From a virus (lineage: Duplodnaviria > Heunggongvirae > Uroviricota > Caudoviricetes), in IMG/VR virus record IMGVR_UViG_2609459850_000003: a DNA stretch of 8,164 nt; one strand, given 5' to 3'. A program made the position numbers and the translations under genes. The notes beneath the pieces are model-generated. The model did not search any database. It saw only the letters and a program-made list of their open reading frames with translations, and was not told where the DNA came from. Every line of letters starts with the position of its first letter. Positions within the stretch are counted from its first letter, which is position 1. Positions 1-8,164 of this stretch are shown here, one piece after another.

Positions 1-362
<362 letters not shown>

Positions 363-442: not shown

Positions 443-1470
<1,028 letters not shown>

Positions 1471-1583: not shown

Positions 1584-1844
1584 ATGGATTACACAAATCT
1601 ACCTAAACAAACTTTTGCTGATTTAATCGCACTCAGGCAAGCAGTCGTAGCTCTAATCAACTTGTTGCCGGAGAAGGAAAAGGAATTAGTTAAAGCGCTT
1701 CTTAACAGAACTGCCGCCGATTTTTCATCATATCCACTGACAGATGACCTTGCGGACCTTCCTGAATTAATTGCAGCGTCCGCCAATAAGCTTACTGAAG
1801 AGATTTACCCTCCTCAAAAATCTTCACAAAATTCCTGCGAGTAA
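1584..1844 (+). CDS. Possible small acidic helical protein (86 aa), antisense to the lysis operon; hypothetical
   Basis: ATG at 1584 is preceded by AGAGG at 1574-1578 (5-nt spacer). The translation has amphipathic-helix character (LIALRQAVVALINLLPEKEKELVKALL). Its 3' 53 nt overlap the convergent 183-aa ORF, and the C-terminal tail looks low-complexity. It occupies an otherwise unexplained gap of about 320 bp between the endolysin and the upstream ORF. Confidence 0.3.
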   Translation: MDYTNLPKQTFADLIALRQAVVALINLLPEKEKELVKALLNRTAADFSSYPLTDDLADLPELIAASANKLTEEIYPPQKSSQNSCE

Positions 1845-2343
1845 CTTCAATGCAATAATCGTAAAACGCCGCAAACTGCTCATCGCGGCGTTTTTTTTCA
1901 TCTTCAGAAGGAATCAGCACCGACAATTTTTTATTCAGATCAGCGACGCTGCCCTCCAGTTTTTCAATGGGCGATTCAATATCATCTTTTTCTGACCGCA
2001 ATGCCGTCGGTGGCGTCTTCAGAGAACCAGTAATTCTTCCCGGTAGCTTTCCTTTGTAGGTTATCCACACATTCTGCGCCTCTAAAATTATGGGGCGCTT
2101 TTCCGGCGACTGCTCATCCCCTTCACATAACCCGGCAGCAACATCCAGGAAGACCTGTCTGATGCTCCTTCTGGCTGCTGCCTCATAAAACTCCAGCGCG
2201 GCACCTTCAACACGGTCCAGCGAGATGTCCAGGTCAAAAATTTCACCGTCAAAGTGTTTTTTGTCCCGTAAGGCTACAGTTACCGCCACTTTATTCTCAA
2301 AATTGCGAACTCCTTTCACAACCAGTTCATAGTCTTGAGTCAT
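1792..2343 (-). CDS. Hypothetical phage protein (183 aa) located between holin and endolysin
   Basis: Long ORF on the lysis-operon strand; first ATG at 2343 lies 4 nt after the holin stop, with a purine-rich GAGAG upstream (the ORF track's 2364 start is TTG). Mixed charged and hydrophobic composition, no transmembrane segment seen by eye, no family recognised. Occupies the slot of ydfR in K-12 Qin but is much longer. Confidence 0.6.
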   Translation of the reverse strand: MTQDYELVVKGVRNFENKVAVTVALRDKKHFDGEIFDLDISLDRVEGAALEFYEAAARRSIRQVFLDVAAGLCEGDEQSPEKRPIILEAQNVWITYKGKLPGRITGSLKTPPTALRSEKDDIESPIEKLEGSVADLNKKLSVLIPSEDEKKRRDEQFAAFYDYCIEVTRRNFVKIFEEGKSLQ

Positions 2344-2347
2344 TGGA

Positions 2348-2563
2348 TTACTCTCTTCTCGCAACCTTACGCCTGTCTTCTTTAATCTTGAAATAAAGGT
2401 TTGTCAGATACGTCAGCATGCCAAATACCAGACTACCCAATACACCTATTGCCGCCCACTGTGAGGGCGTGACTTTATCGAGCAACTGTAAAAACCAGTA
2501 GCCAGCACTGCCTGCAGAGGTGCTGTAGGCGATGCCCGTTGTTAACTTATCCATGGATTTCAT
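2348..2563 (-). CDS. Class II holin of the phage 21 S21 pinholin family, with dual-start motif
   Basis: 71-aa product [71 protein letters not shown]: two transmembrane domains (the first Gly/Ala/Ser-rich and SAR-like) and a basic C-terminus. The M1-K2-S3-M4 dual-start motif is characteristic of S21-68/S21-71 holin/antiholin. Strong RBS GGAGGTGAGG upstream of the ATG at 2563. The ORF-track extension to 2647 has no ATG start. Confidence 0.9.
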
Positions 2564-2753: not shown

Positions 2754-3467
2754 CTAAGAAAATCTTGATAAATATTGGCGCGGAGGCACACCAAAATATC
2801 CTCTAAAAACACTTACAAAATATGATGCATTGTCATACCCGCATATTCCCGCCACCTTGCCGACAGTATGGTTACTGTAGATCAATAATCTTTGCGCCAT
2901 CATCATTCGTTCTTCAAGAATTAATTTACTAAACGATAACCCTTCGTCTTTTAATTTTCTTTTTAACAAACTCTCGCTCATATATAATCTTGAAGATATA
3001 TCACAAAGTCTCCATGACGCTGAGATATCCGAGTGAATAATAGCCTTAACTTTACAACCTAAGCTATTAAGACTTCCGAACAAAAAACTTTGCACTATTT
3101 TCTCTGAAGATAAGACAGCAAGACATGCAAGTGATATTTGATTTCTAACTACATCCACGGTTTTGCTATCACAATTCAAGCATGCAACCAAGTTCCTTAA
3201 CAAGGAAAAATCTTCACATTCTACTATCAAGTATGACGGATAAAACCTTCTTACAGAAAAAGGTGAGAGTGTGTAGTTTTTAAAGAAATCATTAACTGTT
3301 TTCTCCTCAACATCTACGATCATTAGATGATCTGTATTTGACGAAAAAAGATCTTTTAAATTGTATTCAATGAGGACAGCATTTCCTTTTTTAAACAAAA
3401 TATCTTCTTTACCAATTCGGACACCAAACGAGTTCAACACCAAAATGATAGAACATATGTATGGCAT
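2754..3467 (-). CDS. AraC/XylS-family transcriptional regulator (AppY/EnvY/Rns-like), AT-rich xenogeneic gene
   Basis: ATG at 3467 with RBS AGGTGG 5 nt upstream (the ORF-track start at 3476 is GTG). The C-terminal roughly 100 aa carry the double helix-turn-helix signature of the AraC family (...SFSKLILEERMMMAQRLLIYSNHTVGKVAGICGYDNASYFVSVFRGYFGVPPRQY). The gene and about 400 bp upstream are visibly AT-rich. Confidence 0.85.
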   Translation of the reverse strand: MPYICSIILVLNSFGVRIGKEDILFKKGNAVLIEYNLKDLFSSNTDHLMIVDVEEKTVNDFFKNYTLSPFSVRRFYPSYLIVECEDFSLLRNLVACLNCDSKTVDVVRNQISLACLAVLSSEKIVQSFLFGSLNSLGCKVKAIIHSDISASWRLCDISSRLYMSESLLKRKLKDEGLSFSKLILEERMMMAQRLLIYSNHTVGKVAGICGYDNASYFVSVFRGYFGVPPRQYLSRFS

Positions 3468-3873
3468 ATTATCCACCTGATATCATTGGGGTTACACCAG
3501 GTAAGTATAGGTGGAAAATCAATATTCGCCAGTTCAACAATAAGGAAAATCTCATTGCATCACAACTATAAAACCATGTGTTTAACTCACAAAAAACAAA
3601 TCATTAAACTAATCTGTTATATTATAATAGCTGCGTGCAATAATAATATTATATGCTCTTAATATTCACTTGAAATATCTTCATATAAAAACAGATTGAA
3701 TAAAATCTTTTGGGGCTGGTATGTTTACCAACATTAAATTGCATCTCAATGTTTTCTTTAGCGTGAACAGGATTTTTATACAAACTGACACTATGGGCAT
3801 CATAGCGTAGTTTTTACGATTGTAAATATCCTGCATACAGGAACTCATCACTTTCAGATGATATCGCATACAG

Positions 3874-4833
3874 TTAATTCACCATCAGTCTTAGAGCCAG
3901 TTCTTCCGGATAGGGATCGAAGTAATTCTGTGTAAGCAAGTAATCATTAGGATACTCACCCAGATAATGCTTCAGCAGAGTCAACGGCGCAAGAAGAGGC
4001 AATGTGCCAAAGCGATAGTTAAGTATAACCTCGCTCAACTCTTTACGCTGGCGTGTACTTAAGTAATTACTAAAATACCCCTGTATATGCATCAGCACAT
4101 TCGTGTGATTTTTACGTGATGCTGGTTTTCTGAGAATCGCCATCAGATTATCACGATACACCTCAAAGTATGATTCAAGGTCCGCCCACTCGTGTATTGC
4201 AGCCACAAATGGTCCCATATCTTTATAGCCTGCCTGGCTATGCGCCAACAACTGAAGCTTATAACGACTATGAAAAGCTAATAACTCTCTTCTTGATAAT
4301 TTCTCCTTGTAAAGATGATTGAGCTCATGCAAAGCAAAAACTCTTTCAATAAAATTCTCACGAAGCACTGGATCATGTAATCGCCCATCCTCTTCAACCG
4401 GTAGCCAGGAAAACTTTTCCATCAAAGTGCTCGTAAATAGTCCCACTCCATCTTTACGACCTCGATTACCATTTTCATCATAGACACGCACGCGCTCCAT
4501 GCCACAGCTGGGAGATTTAGCACAAACCACAAACCCCGATACATCCTTTAATTTGTCCATATAAGAACGACTAAACTCTGTCATTCTCTCTGTCACATCC
4601 TCATTCTGGTCGTGGCTGAAACACATCCGTATATTTCCTTGCTTCGAGCGCACAAGTCGTAGAGCAGGACGCGGAACTGGCAGCCCTATAGCCATTTCCG
4701 GACATACTGGTCTGAATGTTACCCATTCCACTAATTTGTCCATTAAAAAGTCATCTCTTTTGTGACCACCATCAAAACGAACAGCAGAACCGCCCAAACA
4801 ACCGCTGATCCCAATCACAGGTTTTTTTATCAT
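3874..4833 (-). CDS. DUF523 (TudS-like [4Fe-4S] thionucleobase desulfidase) fused to DUF1722 (YbgA-like); RudS-like
   Basis: 319-aa ORF; ATG at 4833 with strong RBS GGGGGAGG. N-terminus MIKKPVIGISGCLGGSAVRFDGGHK...PVCPE...KSPSCG matches the recalled DUF523/TudS pattern with three conserved Cys positioned as Fe-S ligands. The C-terminal roughly 170 aa are helical, consistent with DUF1722. The domain call is from recalled signatures, not a search. Confidence 0.75.
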   Translation of the reverse strand: MIKKPVIGISGCLGGSAVRFDGGHKRDDFLMDKLVEWVTFRPVCPEMAIGLPVPRPALRLVRSKQGNIRMCFSHDQNEDVTERMTEFSRSYMDKLKDVSGFVVCAKSPSCGMERVRVYDENGNRGRKDGVGLFTSTLMEKFSWLPVEEDGRLHDPVLRENFIERVFALHELNHLYKEKLSRRELLAFHSRYKLQLLAHSQAGYKDMGPFVAAIHEWADLESYFEVYRDNLMAILRKPASRKNHTNVLMHIQGYFSNYLSTRQRKELSEVILNYRFGTLPLLAPLTLLKHYLGEYPNDYLLTQNYFDPYPEELALRLMVN

Positions 4834-5025
4834 TTCCTCCCCCTTGACTAATTCATTAACACATAAACTTTGTAGTGCACGGACTAAATTGCCTTTCTGG
4901 CTTCATCACTGACAATTTTTCTGTTATTGACTATTCCTAATATAGTAGGAAAGTTCTTTAAGTGATCGGTCGTACTCATCTATCTTTCATACTTACTCTC
5001 AACTATCAAAAGTACAGGATTTATT
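4834..5025. promoter_or_regulatory. Divergent intergenic region between the DUF523-DUF1722 gene (-) and the lipocalin gene (+); presumed promoters and operators
   Basis: 192-bp AT-rich spacer between divergently oriented start codons. Contains TTGACT-like hexamers (for example 4927-4932) and an imperfect direct repeat TGACAAT (4910-4916) / TGACTAT (4928-4934). No promoter could be assigned confidently by eye. Confidence 0.35.
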
Positions 5026-5550
5026 ATGAAGTTATGGCCTGTGTTGACTGGCATTGCACTCTCTTTCACTCTTATAGCATGTAAGGCCCCGACACCACCT
5101 AAAGGTGTGCAGCCGATTACAAATTTTGACGCCAACCGCTACCTCGGAAAATGGTATGAAATAGCTCGCCTCGAGAACTGGTTCGAACGTGGTCTGGAAC
5201 AGGTCAGCGCTACTTATGAAAAACGGAACGACGGAGGGATTCGCGTACTTAACCGTGGATACGATCCAACGAAAAACAAATGGAGCGAGAGCGAAGGTAA
5301 AGCATACTTTACTGGAGATACTAAAACTGCAGCGTTGAAAGTTTCGTTTTTTGGCCCCTTCTATGGTGGCTATAATGTAATCAAACTGGATGATGAGTAT
5401 AAGTATGCTCTTGTCAGTGGTCCGAACAGAGAATACCTATGGATTCTGGCAAGGACCCAAACTATTCCAGATAATGTAAAAGCAGACTATGTGCGTACCG
5501 CTCAAAAGTTGGGATTCAATGTCAATGAACTATTATGGGTTAAACAATAA
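5026..5550 (+). CDS. Bacterial lipocalin (Blc-like outer-membrane lipoprotein)
   Basis: 174-aa ORF; ATG at 5026 with CAGGA 6 nt upstream. Lipoprotein signal with lipobox L-I-A-C. Lipocalin SCR1 motif NFDANRYLGKWYEIARLENWFERG and downstream KVSFFGPFYGGYNVIKLDDEY...YLWILART closely parallel E. coli Blc as recalled. Confidence 0.9.
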   Translation: MKLWPVLTGIALSFTLIACKAPTPPKGVQPITNFDANRYLGKWYEIARLENWFERGLEQVSATYEKRNDGGIRVLNRGYDPTKNKWSESEGKAYFTGDTKTAALKVSFFGPFYGGYNVIKLDDEYKYALVSGPNREYLWILARTQTIPDNVKADYVRTAQKLGFNVNELLWVKQ

Positions 5551-7830: not shown

Positions 7831-8164
7831 GGTAATGACTCCAACTTACTGATAGTGTTTTATGTTCAGATAATGCCCGATGACTTTGTCATGCAGCTCC
7901 ACCGATTTTGAGAACGACAGCGACTTCCGTCCCAGCCGTGCCAGGTGCTGCCTCAGATTCAGGTTATGCCGCTCAATTCGCTGCGTATATCGCTTGCTGA
8001 TTACGTGCAGCTTTCCCTTCAGGCGGGATTCATACAGCGGCCAGCCATCCGTCATCCATATCACCACGTCAAAGGGTGACAGCAGGCTCATAAGACGCCC
8101 CAGCGTCGCCATAGTGCGTTCACCGAATACGTGCGCAACAACCGTCTTCCGGAGCCTGTCATAC
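7831..8164 (-). mobile_element. IS1 insertion sequence, terminal 334 bp (continues beyond window end)
   Basis: Terminal inverted repeat ggtaatgactccaacttactgatagtg begins at 7831. The following sequence encodes the InsB C-terminus on the minus strand and matches IS1 as recalled nearly base for base. Confidence 0.9.
7846..8164 (-). CDS. insB: IS1 transposase InsB, C-terminal part (5' end outside window)
   Basis: Translation ...[88 protein letters not shown] is the canonical InsB C-terminus. TAA stop at 7846-7848 sits just inside the IS1 terminal repeat. The frame stays open to the window edge. Confidence 0.9.

What the first reader, a model, noticed from the sequence alone, without database searches (positions are those of the whole stretch)
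1792..2343. Unknown 183-aa ORF wedged between pinholin and endolysin
Lysis cassettes are usually compact (S-R-Rz/Rz1). Here a 183-aa ORF of unrecognised family starts 4 nt after the holin stop and is co-oriented with the lysis genes, so it would be co-expressed late. K-12 Qin has a gene in the same position (ydfR) but, as recalled, only about 100 aa. The protein has no obvious transmembrane segment and is rich in charged residues (DEKKRRDEQ). Candidate roles include a lysis regulator, an antirepressor-like factor, or a superinfection-exclusion/defence moron.
Basis: partly seen in the sequence, partly recalled or inferred. Interest (0 to 1): 0.6.

Follow-up and report, generated by a model that had tools for sequence, protein, structure and literature searches.

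The report
YdfR-family late gene beside the pinholin
The ORF is a real gene, but it belongs to the already catalogued YdfR/DUF1327 family of E. coli prophage proteins, whose function is unproven and whose K-12 relative was recently reported to bind the RNA-cutting enzyme RNase E.

Summary
The ORF exists as described, on the minus strand (2343->1792). It has 183 codons, its ATG lies 4 nt after the phage-21-type holin stop, and it is soluble, acidic and 34% charged. It is not an unrecognised family. Residues 1-112 match Pfam DUF1327 (E 2.6e-42) and the whole protein matches phrog_2091. The identical protein is public on at least 1000 contigs as 'YdfR family protein'. It is homologous to K-12 ydfR, but only over residues 1-~69.

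The protein has three modules:
- a beta-beta-beta-alpha core (1-70);
- a conserved middle segment (71-112);
- a two-helix C-module (113-183).

The C-module also occurs as a free-standing 67-aa gene in the same slot after the holin. In 78 of 78 surveyed loci the gene starts 4 nt after the holin stop.

No function is established. The only experimental lead is a 2026 report that K-12 YdfR residues 1-72 bind the RNase E catalytic half and co-purify with RNA. I therefore favour a late-expressed RNase E/RNA adaptor (inferred) over a lysis regulator or a defence gene.

A convergent 86-aa ORF overlaps the 3' end, and a terminator-like hairpin that could end its transcript lies inside the 'DEKKRRDEQ' coding stretch.

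Interest is modest: a known family of unknown function.

The parts
1792..2343 (-). YdfR/DUF1327-family gene, long (183-aa) form; ATG at 2343, TAA at 1794-1792
   Evidence: ORF and translation. PF07041 E 2.6e-42 over aa 1-112 and phrog_2091 E 8e-112 over 1-183. The exact protein is public as 'YdfR family protein'.
2134..2343 (-). Core module, aa 1-70: three beta-strands plus one long helix. This is the only part shared with K-12 YdfR.
   Evidence: AF2 gives E5-14, E18-27, E34-43 and H50-73 with pLDDT 68-86. The K-12 alignment breaks at window 2144. pN/pS is 0.40. K-12 YdfR aa 1-72 holds the RNase E-binding surface (PMC13232886).
2008..2133 (-). Middle module, aa 71-112 (GLCEGDEQSPEKRPIILEAQNVWITYKGKLPGRITGSLKTPP). 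It is highly conserved but modelled with low confidence.
   Evidence: Nearly invariant columns; pN/pS 0.47; pLDDT 25-41. It is present in the 114/116-aa forms and absent from K-12 YdfR.
1795..2007 (-). C-module, aa 113-183: two long alpha-helices (aa 114-143 and 147-182), including the DEKKRRDEQ stretch
   Evidence: AF2 of the module alone gives mean pLDDT 87.8 with H2-31 and H35-70. The module recurs as a free-standing 67-aa gene (P0218) in the same slot, and fused to other N-termini or tails (P0133, P0161, 296-aa forms).
2344..2360 (-). Holin/ydfR-family junction: AGAAGAGAG-TAA-TCCA-ATG. The SD-like GAGAG lies inside the last holin codons and the gap is 4 nt.
   Evidence: Sequence. The same 4-nt spacing is found in 78 of 78 loci with a complete upstream holin.
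2348..2563 (-). Phage-21-type class II holin (pinholin family), 71 aa with the dual start MKSM
   Evidence: PF04971 E 3.3e-34 and phrog_9876/phrog_20 holin.
1584..1844 (+). Convergent 86-aa ORF (phrog_2572) that overlaps the last 53 nt of the YdfR-family gene; a probable but unproven gene
   Evidence: phrog_2572 E 4.4e-53. PGAP annotates it as WP_001557934.1. A GAGG lies 5 nt before the ATG. It is the only frame without stops in 8 unique variants, but pN/pS of 0.56 does not discriminate. No promoter-like site lies upstream.
1863..1898 (+). Terminator-like hairpin (AAAACGCCGC-N12-GCGGCGTTTT followed by TTTT), 19 nt after the stop of the convergent ORF and encoded inside 'EDEKKRRDEQFAAF' of the 183-aa ORF
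   Evidence: dG -14.6 kcal/mol, z -3.1. It is kept, once through a G-U-compatible change, in 32 loci that also carry the C-module. Its 5' arm is deleted in the 296-aa type, which lacks the convergent ORF. It is weakened to -7.6 in L117.
937..1470 (-). Lysozyme-type endolysin (rrrQ-like), 177 aa, 321 nt downstream of the YdfR-family gene
   Evidence: PF00959 E 2.6e-24 and phrog_7; annotated rrrQ in E. coli HS.
443..940 (-). Rz-like i-spanin (DUF2514), with an embedded out-of-frame ORF (789->493) in the position where K-12 has rzoQ
   Evidence: PF10721 E 1.9e-38 and phrog_312; ORF list; K-12 rzpQ/rzoQ layout.

Best explanation
The ORF is an intact long-form member of the YdfR/DUF1327 family. This is a narrow family of soluble cytoplasmic proteins from lambdoid prophages of Escherichia and Shigella. 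The gene sits immediately after the phage-21-type holin gene, so it is probably translated together with the holin from the Q-dependent late transcript.

Shown here:
- family membership;
- three-module anatomy: a beta-beta-beta-alpha core (aa 1-70), a conserved middle segment (71-112) and a two-helix C-module (113-183);
- purifying selection on the core and middle;
- invariant 4-nt spacing from the holin stop;
- shuffling of the modules, with the core+middle alone (114/116 aa) or the C-module alone (67 aa) filling the same slot.

Inferred mechanism: like K-12 YdfR, whose residues 1-72 are about 85% identical, the core docks on the catalytic N-terminal half of host RNase E and may bind RNA. The C-terminal helical hairpin would add self-association or a second partner. 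Late in infection the protein would then modulate RNase E action on phage or host RNA, for example on the long late transcript that carries the lysis genes. It would be an accessory that fine-tunes the cycle rather than an essential lysis component.

Confidence is about 0.9 for identity and reality of the gene, and about 0.3 for the RNase E mechanism. The single figure below is a blend of the two.
For: - Family: PF07041 at 143.4 bits against a cut-off of 25, and phrog_2091 at E 8e-112. The identical sequence is named 'YdfR family protein' on >=1000 contigs.
- Homology to K-12 ydfR over window 2343-2144; 83% identity over 75 aa.
- Reality of the gene: pN/pS is 0.40 and 0.47 for core and middle. 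In-frame indels of 15, 21 and 84 nt preserve the C-terminal frame. The C-module is reused in P0218, P0133 and P0161.
- Late co-expression: 4 nt after the holin stop in 78 of 78 loci, with an SD-like sequence inside the holin 3' end.
- Soluble: no TM segment.
- Structure: core beta-beta-beta-alpha at pLDDT 68-86; C-module two helices at pLDDT 87.8.
- Experimental lead (PMC13232886): K-12 YdfR scores in a bacterial two-hybrid assay with Rne1-597. Rne1-598 co-purifies with Strep-YdfR. The interaction maps to aa 1-72, and DNase-resistant nucleic acid co-purifies.
- Precedent for phage proteins that target RNase E: T4 Srd binds the N-terminal half; phiKZ Dip (PMC4980113).
- Non-essential accessory: DLP12 essD abuts rrrD with no such gene.
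Against: - The RNase E binding was shown only for the 103-aa K-12 protein, which shares only the core. It was not shown for this 183-aa form, and it has not been tested during phage growth.
- In that study full-length YdfR was two-hybrid positive only with Rne1-597. Overproduction changed few transcripts and did not affect growth. The authors could not exclude a contaminant as the RNA binder.
- The strict linkage to the holin is not explained by an RNase E role.
- The C-module alone can occupy the slot, so the property under selection there need not reside in the core.
Confidence: 0.4

Rival explanations
1. Lysis-timing accessory. The protein acts on the pinholin or on the membrane-tethered endolysin from the cytoplasmic side. 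For example, it could bind the charged C-terminal tail of the holin and so delay or sharpen triggering. Its synthesis would be kept proportional to the holin by translational coupling.
For: The gene starts 4 nt after the holin stop in 78 of 78 loci, and an R21-type lysozyme gene follows in every locus where the sequence reached it. Either the core+middle or the C-module alone is kept in exactly this slot, which points to selection on the slot itself. The reported envelope-integrity hit for ydfR is cited in PMC13232886.
Against: - The protein has no TM segment or signal peptide. The comparator accessories named here from general knowledge (T4 RI, P1 LydB, Mu gp25) are membrane or periplasmic proteins.
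- Overproduced K-12 YdfR gave no growth or lysis phenotype.
- S21-type cassettes exist without it (DLP12). The 1.3-kb holin-to-endolysin query matched about 14,100 places in E. coli genomes, against 4,800 for the core.
- A core-only homologue sits outside any lysis cassette (L102).
- ydfR is not mentioned in the main text of the envelope screen. A polar effect of the deletion cassette on rrrQ could explain that hit (my inference).
Confidence: 0.2
2. The gene is damaged: a 112-aa YdfR gene truncated by an inserted cassette. On this reading aa 113-183 are fortuitous read-through with no function. This is the view implied by current RefSeq/PGAP annotation.
For: - PGAP marks the gene 'incomplete... 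missing C-terminus' (aa 1-112 only) in E. coli HS and in strain 2013C_3653, and calls the convergent 86-aa ORF instead.
- The 114/116-aa forms show that core+middle is a complete unit.
- C-module pN/pS against the 296-aa type is 0.57 and no better than some off-frames.
- A terminator-like hairpin lies inside the coding stretch.
Against: - The C-terminal frame is preserved through in-frame indels of 15, 21 and 84 nt.
- The same module is a free-standing 67-aa gene with its own ATG in 401 blocks of the collection. It is also fused to unrelated N-termini (P0133) and tails (P0161, 296-aa forms).
- It folds into two helices at pLDDT 87.8.
- Other NCBI records name the full 183-aa product 'YdfR family protein'.
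Confidence: 0.08
3. Defence, superinfection-exclusion or antirepressor-like moron. The protein would be made in the lysogen and protect it from other phages, or it would act on a repressor.
For: The C-terminal end is highly mosaic and swappable, as is common for accessory cargo. A core-only homologue lies in an accessory region beside KilA-N/Rha-like genes. The family is confined to Escherichia and Shigella prophages.
Against: There is no match to any PADLOC defence model or to antirepressor families in Pfam or PHROGs. The gene has no promoter of its own and is embedded in the late operon 4 nt after the holin. ydfR gave almost no reads under standard growth.
Confidence: 0.07

Closest known systems
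YdfR of E. coli K-12 cryptic prophage Qin (P76160, 103 aa; Pfam DUF1327)
   Same: Same family and same slot: 4 nt after the essQ-type holin and before the rrrQ-type lysozyme. Residues 1-~69 are homologous (83-85% aa identity, 87.6% nt). This is the stretch reported to bind the RNase E N-terminal half.
   Different: After aa ~69 the two are unrelated. 663 nt of the window replace 98 nt of K-12. The window protein adds the conserved middle segment and a two-helix C-module. A convergent 86-aa ORF and a 321-nt gap precede the lysozyme gene, whereas K-12 ydfR overlaps rrrQ.
Other YdfR-family length variants (PHROGs 406, 2735, 1085, 34145; 104, 114, 116, 176, 211, 268 and 296 aa)
   Same: All share the core and the holin-proximal position. 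The 176-, 211- and 296-aa forms also share the C-module.
   Different: The breakpoints are nested: nt 209, 345 and 458 from the holin stop. The 114-aa forms carry a different convergent ORF (90 aa, phrog_2411). The 116-aa and 296-aa forms carry none. The 296-aa forms have a further domain of about 120 aa of unknown fold.
P0218-type free-standing C-module protein (67 aa) of Stx-type prophages
   Same: The last ~45 residues are nearly identical (SEDEKKRRDEQFAAFYDYCIEVTRRNFVKIFEE.KSLQ). The slot is the same (3 nt after the holin stop), and so are the convergent 86-aa ORF and the hairpin.
   Different: It has no DUF1327 core or middle segment. It has its own ATG and a diverged, leucine-zipper-like first helix.
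Phage-encoded RNase E modulators: T4 Srd, phiKZ Dip (gp37); host adaptor RapZ
   Same: These are candidates for 'works like': small proteins that bind RNase E and change RNA decay. Srd and RapZ contact the N-terminal half, as reported for YdfR (PMC13232886; PMC4980113).
   Different: No sequence or fold similarity was found. No effect of any YdfR-family protein on RNase E activity has been shown. YdfR overproduction barely changed the transcriptome.
Accessory lysis regulators (T4 RI antiholin, P1 LydB, Mu gp25 releasin)
   Same: They are extra genes inside or beside a holin-endolysin cassette and are expressed with it.
   Different: As recalled from general knowledge (not checked here), those proteins are membrane-anchored or periplasmic and have demonstrated effects on lysis. 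This protein is cytoplasmic with no TM segment and has no demonstrated lysis phenotype.

Membership tests
DUF1327 / YdfR family (Pfam PF07041) | Match to the family HMM above the curated gathering score | tested here: met
   143.4 bits against a cut-off of 25, E 2.6e-42, aa 1-112 on model positions 1-92 of 93.
DUF1327 / YdfR family (Pfam PF07041) | Direct homology to the name-giving K-12 YdfR | tested here: met
   87.6% nt identity over window 2592-2144, which spans the holin gene and the core; 83% aa identity over 75 aa. The homology ends at aa ~69.
DUF1327 / YdfR family (Pfam PF07041) | Genomic position directly after a phage-21-type holin and before the lysozyme gene | tested here: met
   4-nt gap in the window and in 78 of 78 related loci.
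DUF1327 / YdfR family (Pfam PF07041) | Binding to the RNase E N-terminal half (reported for K-12 YdfR only) | not testable with these tools
   This needs two-hybrid or pull-down experiments. It is inferred here only from ~85% identity over aa 1-72.
PHROG 2091 (183-aa phage protein family, unknown function) | Full-length match to the profile | tested here: met
   E 8.1e-112, aa 1-183 on profile positions 1-183 of 183.
BRCT domain (suggested by a marginal PARP1 hit) | Match to BRCT profiles and an alpha/beta BRCT fold spanning aa ~98-180 | tested here: not met
   The only support is PARP1 BRCT at E 0.015. No Pfam BRCT hit at E<=10 in 7 family members. AF2 of the module gives two long helices at pLDDT 87.8. 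The P0218 and P0161 forms start after the would-be first strand.
Holin / antiholin / spanin-type lysis proteins | At least one transmembrane segment, SAR domain or lipobox | tested here: not met
   Maximum 19-residue hydropathy is 0.81 (the holin reaches 1.62), and no lysis PHROG or Pfam family matched.
Known anti-phage defence systems (PADLOC-DB v2) | Match to any defence-protein model | tested here: not met
   No hit at E<=0.01 for the 183-aa protein, the 86-aa ORF or the 296-aa relative.
Phage RNase E modulators (Srd, Dip) | Sequence or fold similarity to a characterised member | tested here: not met

The most novel reading that the evidence does not exclude
The slot after the holin in phage-21-type lysis cassettes may hold a previously unrecognised two-part system. 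It would consist of a beta-beta-beta-alpha core that docks on RNase E and a separable helical-hairpin module. The two occur fused (183 aa) or singly, and are often paired with a convergent small gene whose terminator is written into the C-module's coding sequence. Together they would control the fate of the late lysis mRNA, and hence lysis timing or burst size, in most E. coli lambdoid prophages, including Stx phages.
Probability: 0.15. Interest if true: 0.6.

Novelty: already known. Interest (0 to 1): 0.3.

Why it matters
The family core is present in 3589 of 5426 complete E. coli genomes. The 183-aa and 67-aa forms sit in the lysis cassettes of Stx-type prophages. Even so, no function is known for a gene that is made together with the holin.

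If the RNase E lead holds for these forms, it would add a temperate-phage example to the few known phage modulators of host RNA decay. It could also bear on the timing of lysis and of toxin release in Shiga-toxin-producing strains.

More immediately, RefSeq/PGAP annotation of this locus is inconsistent. The same gene is called intact in some records and a truncated pseudogene in others.

Tried and rejected
- **BRCT domain for aa ~98-180.** This was suggested by a PARP1 BRCT hit (E 0.015). I rejected it for three reasons. No BRCT profile hit appeared in 7 members. AF2 gives two helices. The module boundaries in P0218, P0161 and the 114-aa forms are incompatible with the fold.
- **NCBIfam and PADLOC.** No hits.
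- **Homology among the three convergent ORFs (86, 90 and 98 aa).** BLASTP gave E 0.15 and hhalign gave probabilities below 1%, so they are unrelated.
- **dN/dS proof that the C-module is coding.** pN/pS of 0.57 did not discriminate frames, so I relied on indel phase and module reuse instead. The same limitation applies to the 86-aa ORF (0.56).
- **Wider taxonomic context.** The alignment query to genome contigs failed and P0180 found nothing. The single-protein scan returned only Escherichia, plus two mis-binned MAG contigs.
- **Envelope-integrity phenotype.** ydfR is not in the main text of PMC3879167.
- **Other negatives.** No Rfam family in the window. No sigma-70-like promoter upstream of the 86-aa ORF.

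Full report
**1. The observation**

The window carries a minus-strand lysis cassette:
- a phage-21-type holin (2563->2348, 71 aa, PF04971, E 3.3e-34);
- the ORF in question (2343->1792);
- a lysozyme-type endolysin (1470->937, PF00959);
- an Rz-like spanin (940->443, DUF2514).

The ORF has 183 codons plus TAA. Its ATG lies 4 nt (TCCA) after the holin TAA, and an SD-like GAGAG sits in the last holin codons. The product is 20.8 kDa, pI 5.18 and 34% charged. Its highest 19-residue hydropathy is 0.81, against 1.62 for the holin, so it is a soluble protein. K-12 Qin has ydfR (103 aa) in the same place. The only omission is that the ORF is on the minus strand.

**2. Family**

The ORF does not belong to an unrecognised family.
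- Residues 1-112 match Pfam DUF1327 (PF07041) at 143 bits against a gathering score of 25.
- The whole protein matches phrog_2091 end to end (E 8e-112).
- The identical sequence is on at least 1000 public contigs, named 'YdfR family protein' (UniRef A0A1U9T3F9), in E. coli, Shigella, E. albertii and E. fergusonii.
- The 1.3-kb region is 100% identical to E. coli HS and other strains and 97% identical to phage PhiR63_1.

The family is narrow. Only 76 clusters at 50% identity reach E<=1e-3 among 1.84 billion representatives. A scan of species-representative genomes found it only in Escherichia, plus two evidently mis-binned MAG contigs. Within E. coli it is common: the core is in 3589 of 5426 complete genomes at 4800 places. 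This particular C-terminal module is in 364 genomes.

**3. Relation to K-12 ydfR and modular anatomy**

The window and K-12 are homologous from the holin through codon ~69 of the ORF (87.6% nt identity). After that, 663 nt of the window replace 98 nt of K-12. Comparison with other loci shows nested breakpoints, counted from the holin stop:
- K-12 shares nt 1-209;
- the 114-aa forms share nt 1-345;
- the 296-aa forms share nt 1-458;
- the 211-aa forms share everything but carry an 84-nt in-frame insertion.

Protein alignments give three modules:
- a core (aa 1-70);
- a nearly invariant middle segment (71-112), with which the 114/116-aa forms end;
- a C-module (113-183).

**4. Is the C-terminal 71 aa really translated?**

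The question is a fair one. RefSeq/PGAP annotates only aa 1-112, as a pseudogene 'missing C-terminus', in E. coli HS and in an Stx-prophage copy. It calls a convergent 86-aa ORF instead.

Substitution ratios do not settle it. pN/pS is 0.57 against the 296-aa type, no better than some off-frames. The evidence for translation is of three other kinds.
- In-frame indels of 21 nt (176-aa form), 84 nt (211-aa form) and 15 nt (296-aa form) all restore the downstream frame.
- The module is reused. P0218 is a free-standing 67-aa protein with its own ATG, listed in 401 blocks of the collection. P0133 joins the module to an unrelated N-terminus. P0161 and the 296-aa forms join it to a further domain.
- The helical model is confident.

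The core and middle are under purifying selection (pN/pS 0.40 and 0.47 over 52 unique alleles). I conclude that the 183-aa ORF is an intact gene and that the PGAP pseudogene call is an annotation artefact.

**5. The slot**

In 80 related viral contigs the gene starts exactly 4 nt after the holin stop in all 78 cases where the holin is complete. The variants found were:
- 114 aa plus a convergent 90-aa ORF (36 loci);
- 116 aa with no convergent ORF (20);
- 183 aa plus a convergent 86-aa ORF (17);
- 268 aa (3);
- 104 aa (2).

The free-standing C-module gene P0218 occupies the same slot, 3 nt after the holin stop. It is followed by the same 86-aa ORF and the lysozyme gene, in prophages that carry the NanS-p esterase gene typical of Stx phages. 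The 183-aa form also occurs there.

So core+middle and the C-module each fill the slot alone, and they occur fused in the window. This is a fusion/fission pattern, which suggests that the two parts act in one process (inference). The gene is not obligatory. DLP12 has essD abutting rrrD. A core-only 71-aa homologue lies outside any lysis cassette, beside tail-fibre-like and KilA-N/Rha-like genes.

**6. Function**

No library assigns a function. All matching PHROGs are 'unknown function', and NCBIfam and PADLOC give nothing.

Only one paper in the held library deals with the protein's function: Gopel et al., RNA Biol 2026, PMC13232886. The only paper that mentions DUF1327 does so in passing. The 2026 study reports the following for K-12 YdfR:
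- It was recovered in a bacterial two-hybrid screen, and the interaction maps to residues 1-72.
- It scores with Rne(1-597).
- Rne(1-598) co-purifies with Strep-YdfR.
- DNase-resistant nucleic acid co-purifies.
- Overproduction changes few transcripts and does not slow growth.

Residues 1-72 are ~85% identical in the window protein. The best-supported mechanism, by inference, is therefore a late-expressed protein whose core docks on the catalytic half of RNase E and perhaps on RNA. The helical C-module would provide self-association or a second contact. This is functionally comparable to T4 Srd or the host adaptor RapZ, but unrelated to them in sequence and fold. I put this at about 0.3.

The main rival is a cytoplasmic lysis-timing factor acting on the pinholin or endolysin. 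It explains the strict slot better, but it has no direct support, and the lack of any membrane segment or overexpression phenotype counts against it (~0.2). The pseudogene and defence/antirepressor readings are unlikely, for the reasons given under the rivals.

**7. The convergent ORF and the embedded hairpin**

A plus-strand ORF (1584-1844, 86 aa, phrog_2572) overlaps the last 53 nt of the gene. A GAGG lies 5 nt before its ATG. It is the only stop-free frame in 8 unique variants, and PGAP calls it. Against that, its family is tiny (18 proteins), its pN/pS of 0.56 is uninformative, and no promoter-like site precedes it.

Nineteen nt after its stop lies a 10-bp hairpin with a T-run (1863-1898; dG -14.6, z -3.1).
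- The hairpin is intact in 32 loci that also carry the C-module, once through a G-U-compatible synonymous change.
- Its 5' arm is deleted in the 296-aa type, which lacks the convergent ORF.
- It is weakened to -7.6 kcal/mol in the single P0225-type locus, although the peptide motif is kept.

This fits a terminator for the convergent gene written into the coding sequence, but the sample is small.

The analogous 90-aa ORF of the 114-aa loci is under clear purifying selection: pN/pS is 0.29, against ~1.25 in four other frames. One antisense frame shares its wobble positions and scores 0.26, but it is interrupted by stops in some variants (0.7 per variant on average). The 86-, 90- and 98-aa ORFs are not detectably related.

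**8. Verdict**

This is a real gene, correctly located, and already catalogued as a YdfR/DUF1327-family protein of unknown function. What this analysis adds:
- the module map;
- the finding that the C-module is an independent unit that can occupy the same slot;
- the annotation conflict with PGAP;
- the convergent ORF with its embedded hairpin.

Interest is modest (0.3). The family is a widespread 'known unknown' in a very well studied cassette, and it now has a testable RNase E lead.

Noticed in passing
window 1584-1844 (+) and 1863-1898 (+): A convergent 86-aa ORF (phrog_2572; PGAP WP_001557934.1) overlaps the 3' end of the YdfR-family gene by 53 nt. A terminator-like hairpin follows it and lies inside the 'EDEKKRRDEQFAAF' codons of the opposite-strand gene. 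The hairpin is deleted or weakened in relatives that lack the convergent ORF.
   Followed up: partly
L001 7609-7944 (E. coli HS) and L116 2717-3052; window 2008-2343: RefSeq/PGAP annotates this gene as a pseudogene 'missing C-terminus' covering only aa 1-112. Other NCBI records and the phage PhiR63_1 annotation give the full 183-aa product. This looks like an annotation artefact caused by the overlapping 86-aa ORF call.
   Followed up: yes
L011-L013 2811-3083 (-) and 36 IMG/VR loci; L102 1469-1765 (-): Other YdfR-family variants are also followed by a convergent small ORF: 90 aa (phrog_2411, pN/pS 0.29) after the 114-aa forms, and 98 aa (phrog_25324) after a core-only 71-aa homologue. The three small ORFs are not detectably related to each other. 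Why a convergent small gene recurs at this position is unexplained.
   Followed up: partly
L110-L114 3001-3204: A free-standing 67-aa gene consists of the C-module alone (P0218; listed in 401 blocks of the collection). It sits 3 nt after the holin stop in prophages that carry the NanS-p esterase gene, DUF1378 and DUF826, a context typical of Stx phages.
   Followed up: partly
window 2754-5550: An unusual cargo block lies between the Q antiterminator gene (6098->5706) and the holin, where Stx phages carry stx. It comprises an AraC-family regulator (3476->2754), a YbgA-like 2-thiouracil desulfurase/DUF1722 protein (4833->3874) and a plus-strand lipocalin (5026-5550). A terminator-like hairpin (2685->2664, minus strand) lies just upstream of the holin.
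   Followed up: no
window 33-215 (+) and 7846-8112 (-): The prophage segment is bounded by transposase fragments: the C-terminal end of a DDE_Tnp_1 (IS5-like) transposase just beyond Rz, and the C-terminal 88 aa of an IS1 transposase. This indicates a decayed, cryptic Qin-like prophage.
   Followed up: partly
L017 1709-3261: In one O145-type genome an IS element (rve-family transposase) is inserted into the 183-aa gene. It leaves a 94-aa C-terminal remnant ORF (P0212) that gene callers report as a separate hypothetical protein.
   Followed up: no
P0049 and relatives (L004-L006 2501-3391): The 296-aa family members carry an extra C-terminal domain of about 120 aa (phrog_36381 and phrog_26186 parts). 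It has no Pfam or PDB sequence match, it fills the whole space up to the lysozyme gene, and its fold and role are unknown.
   Followed up: partly
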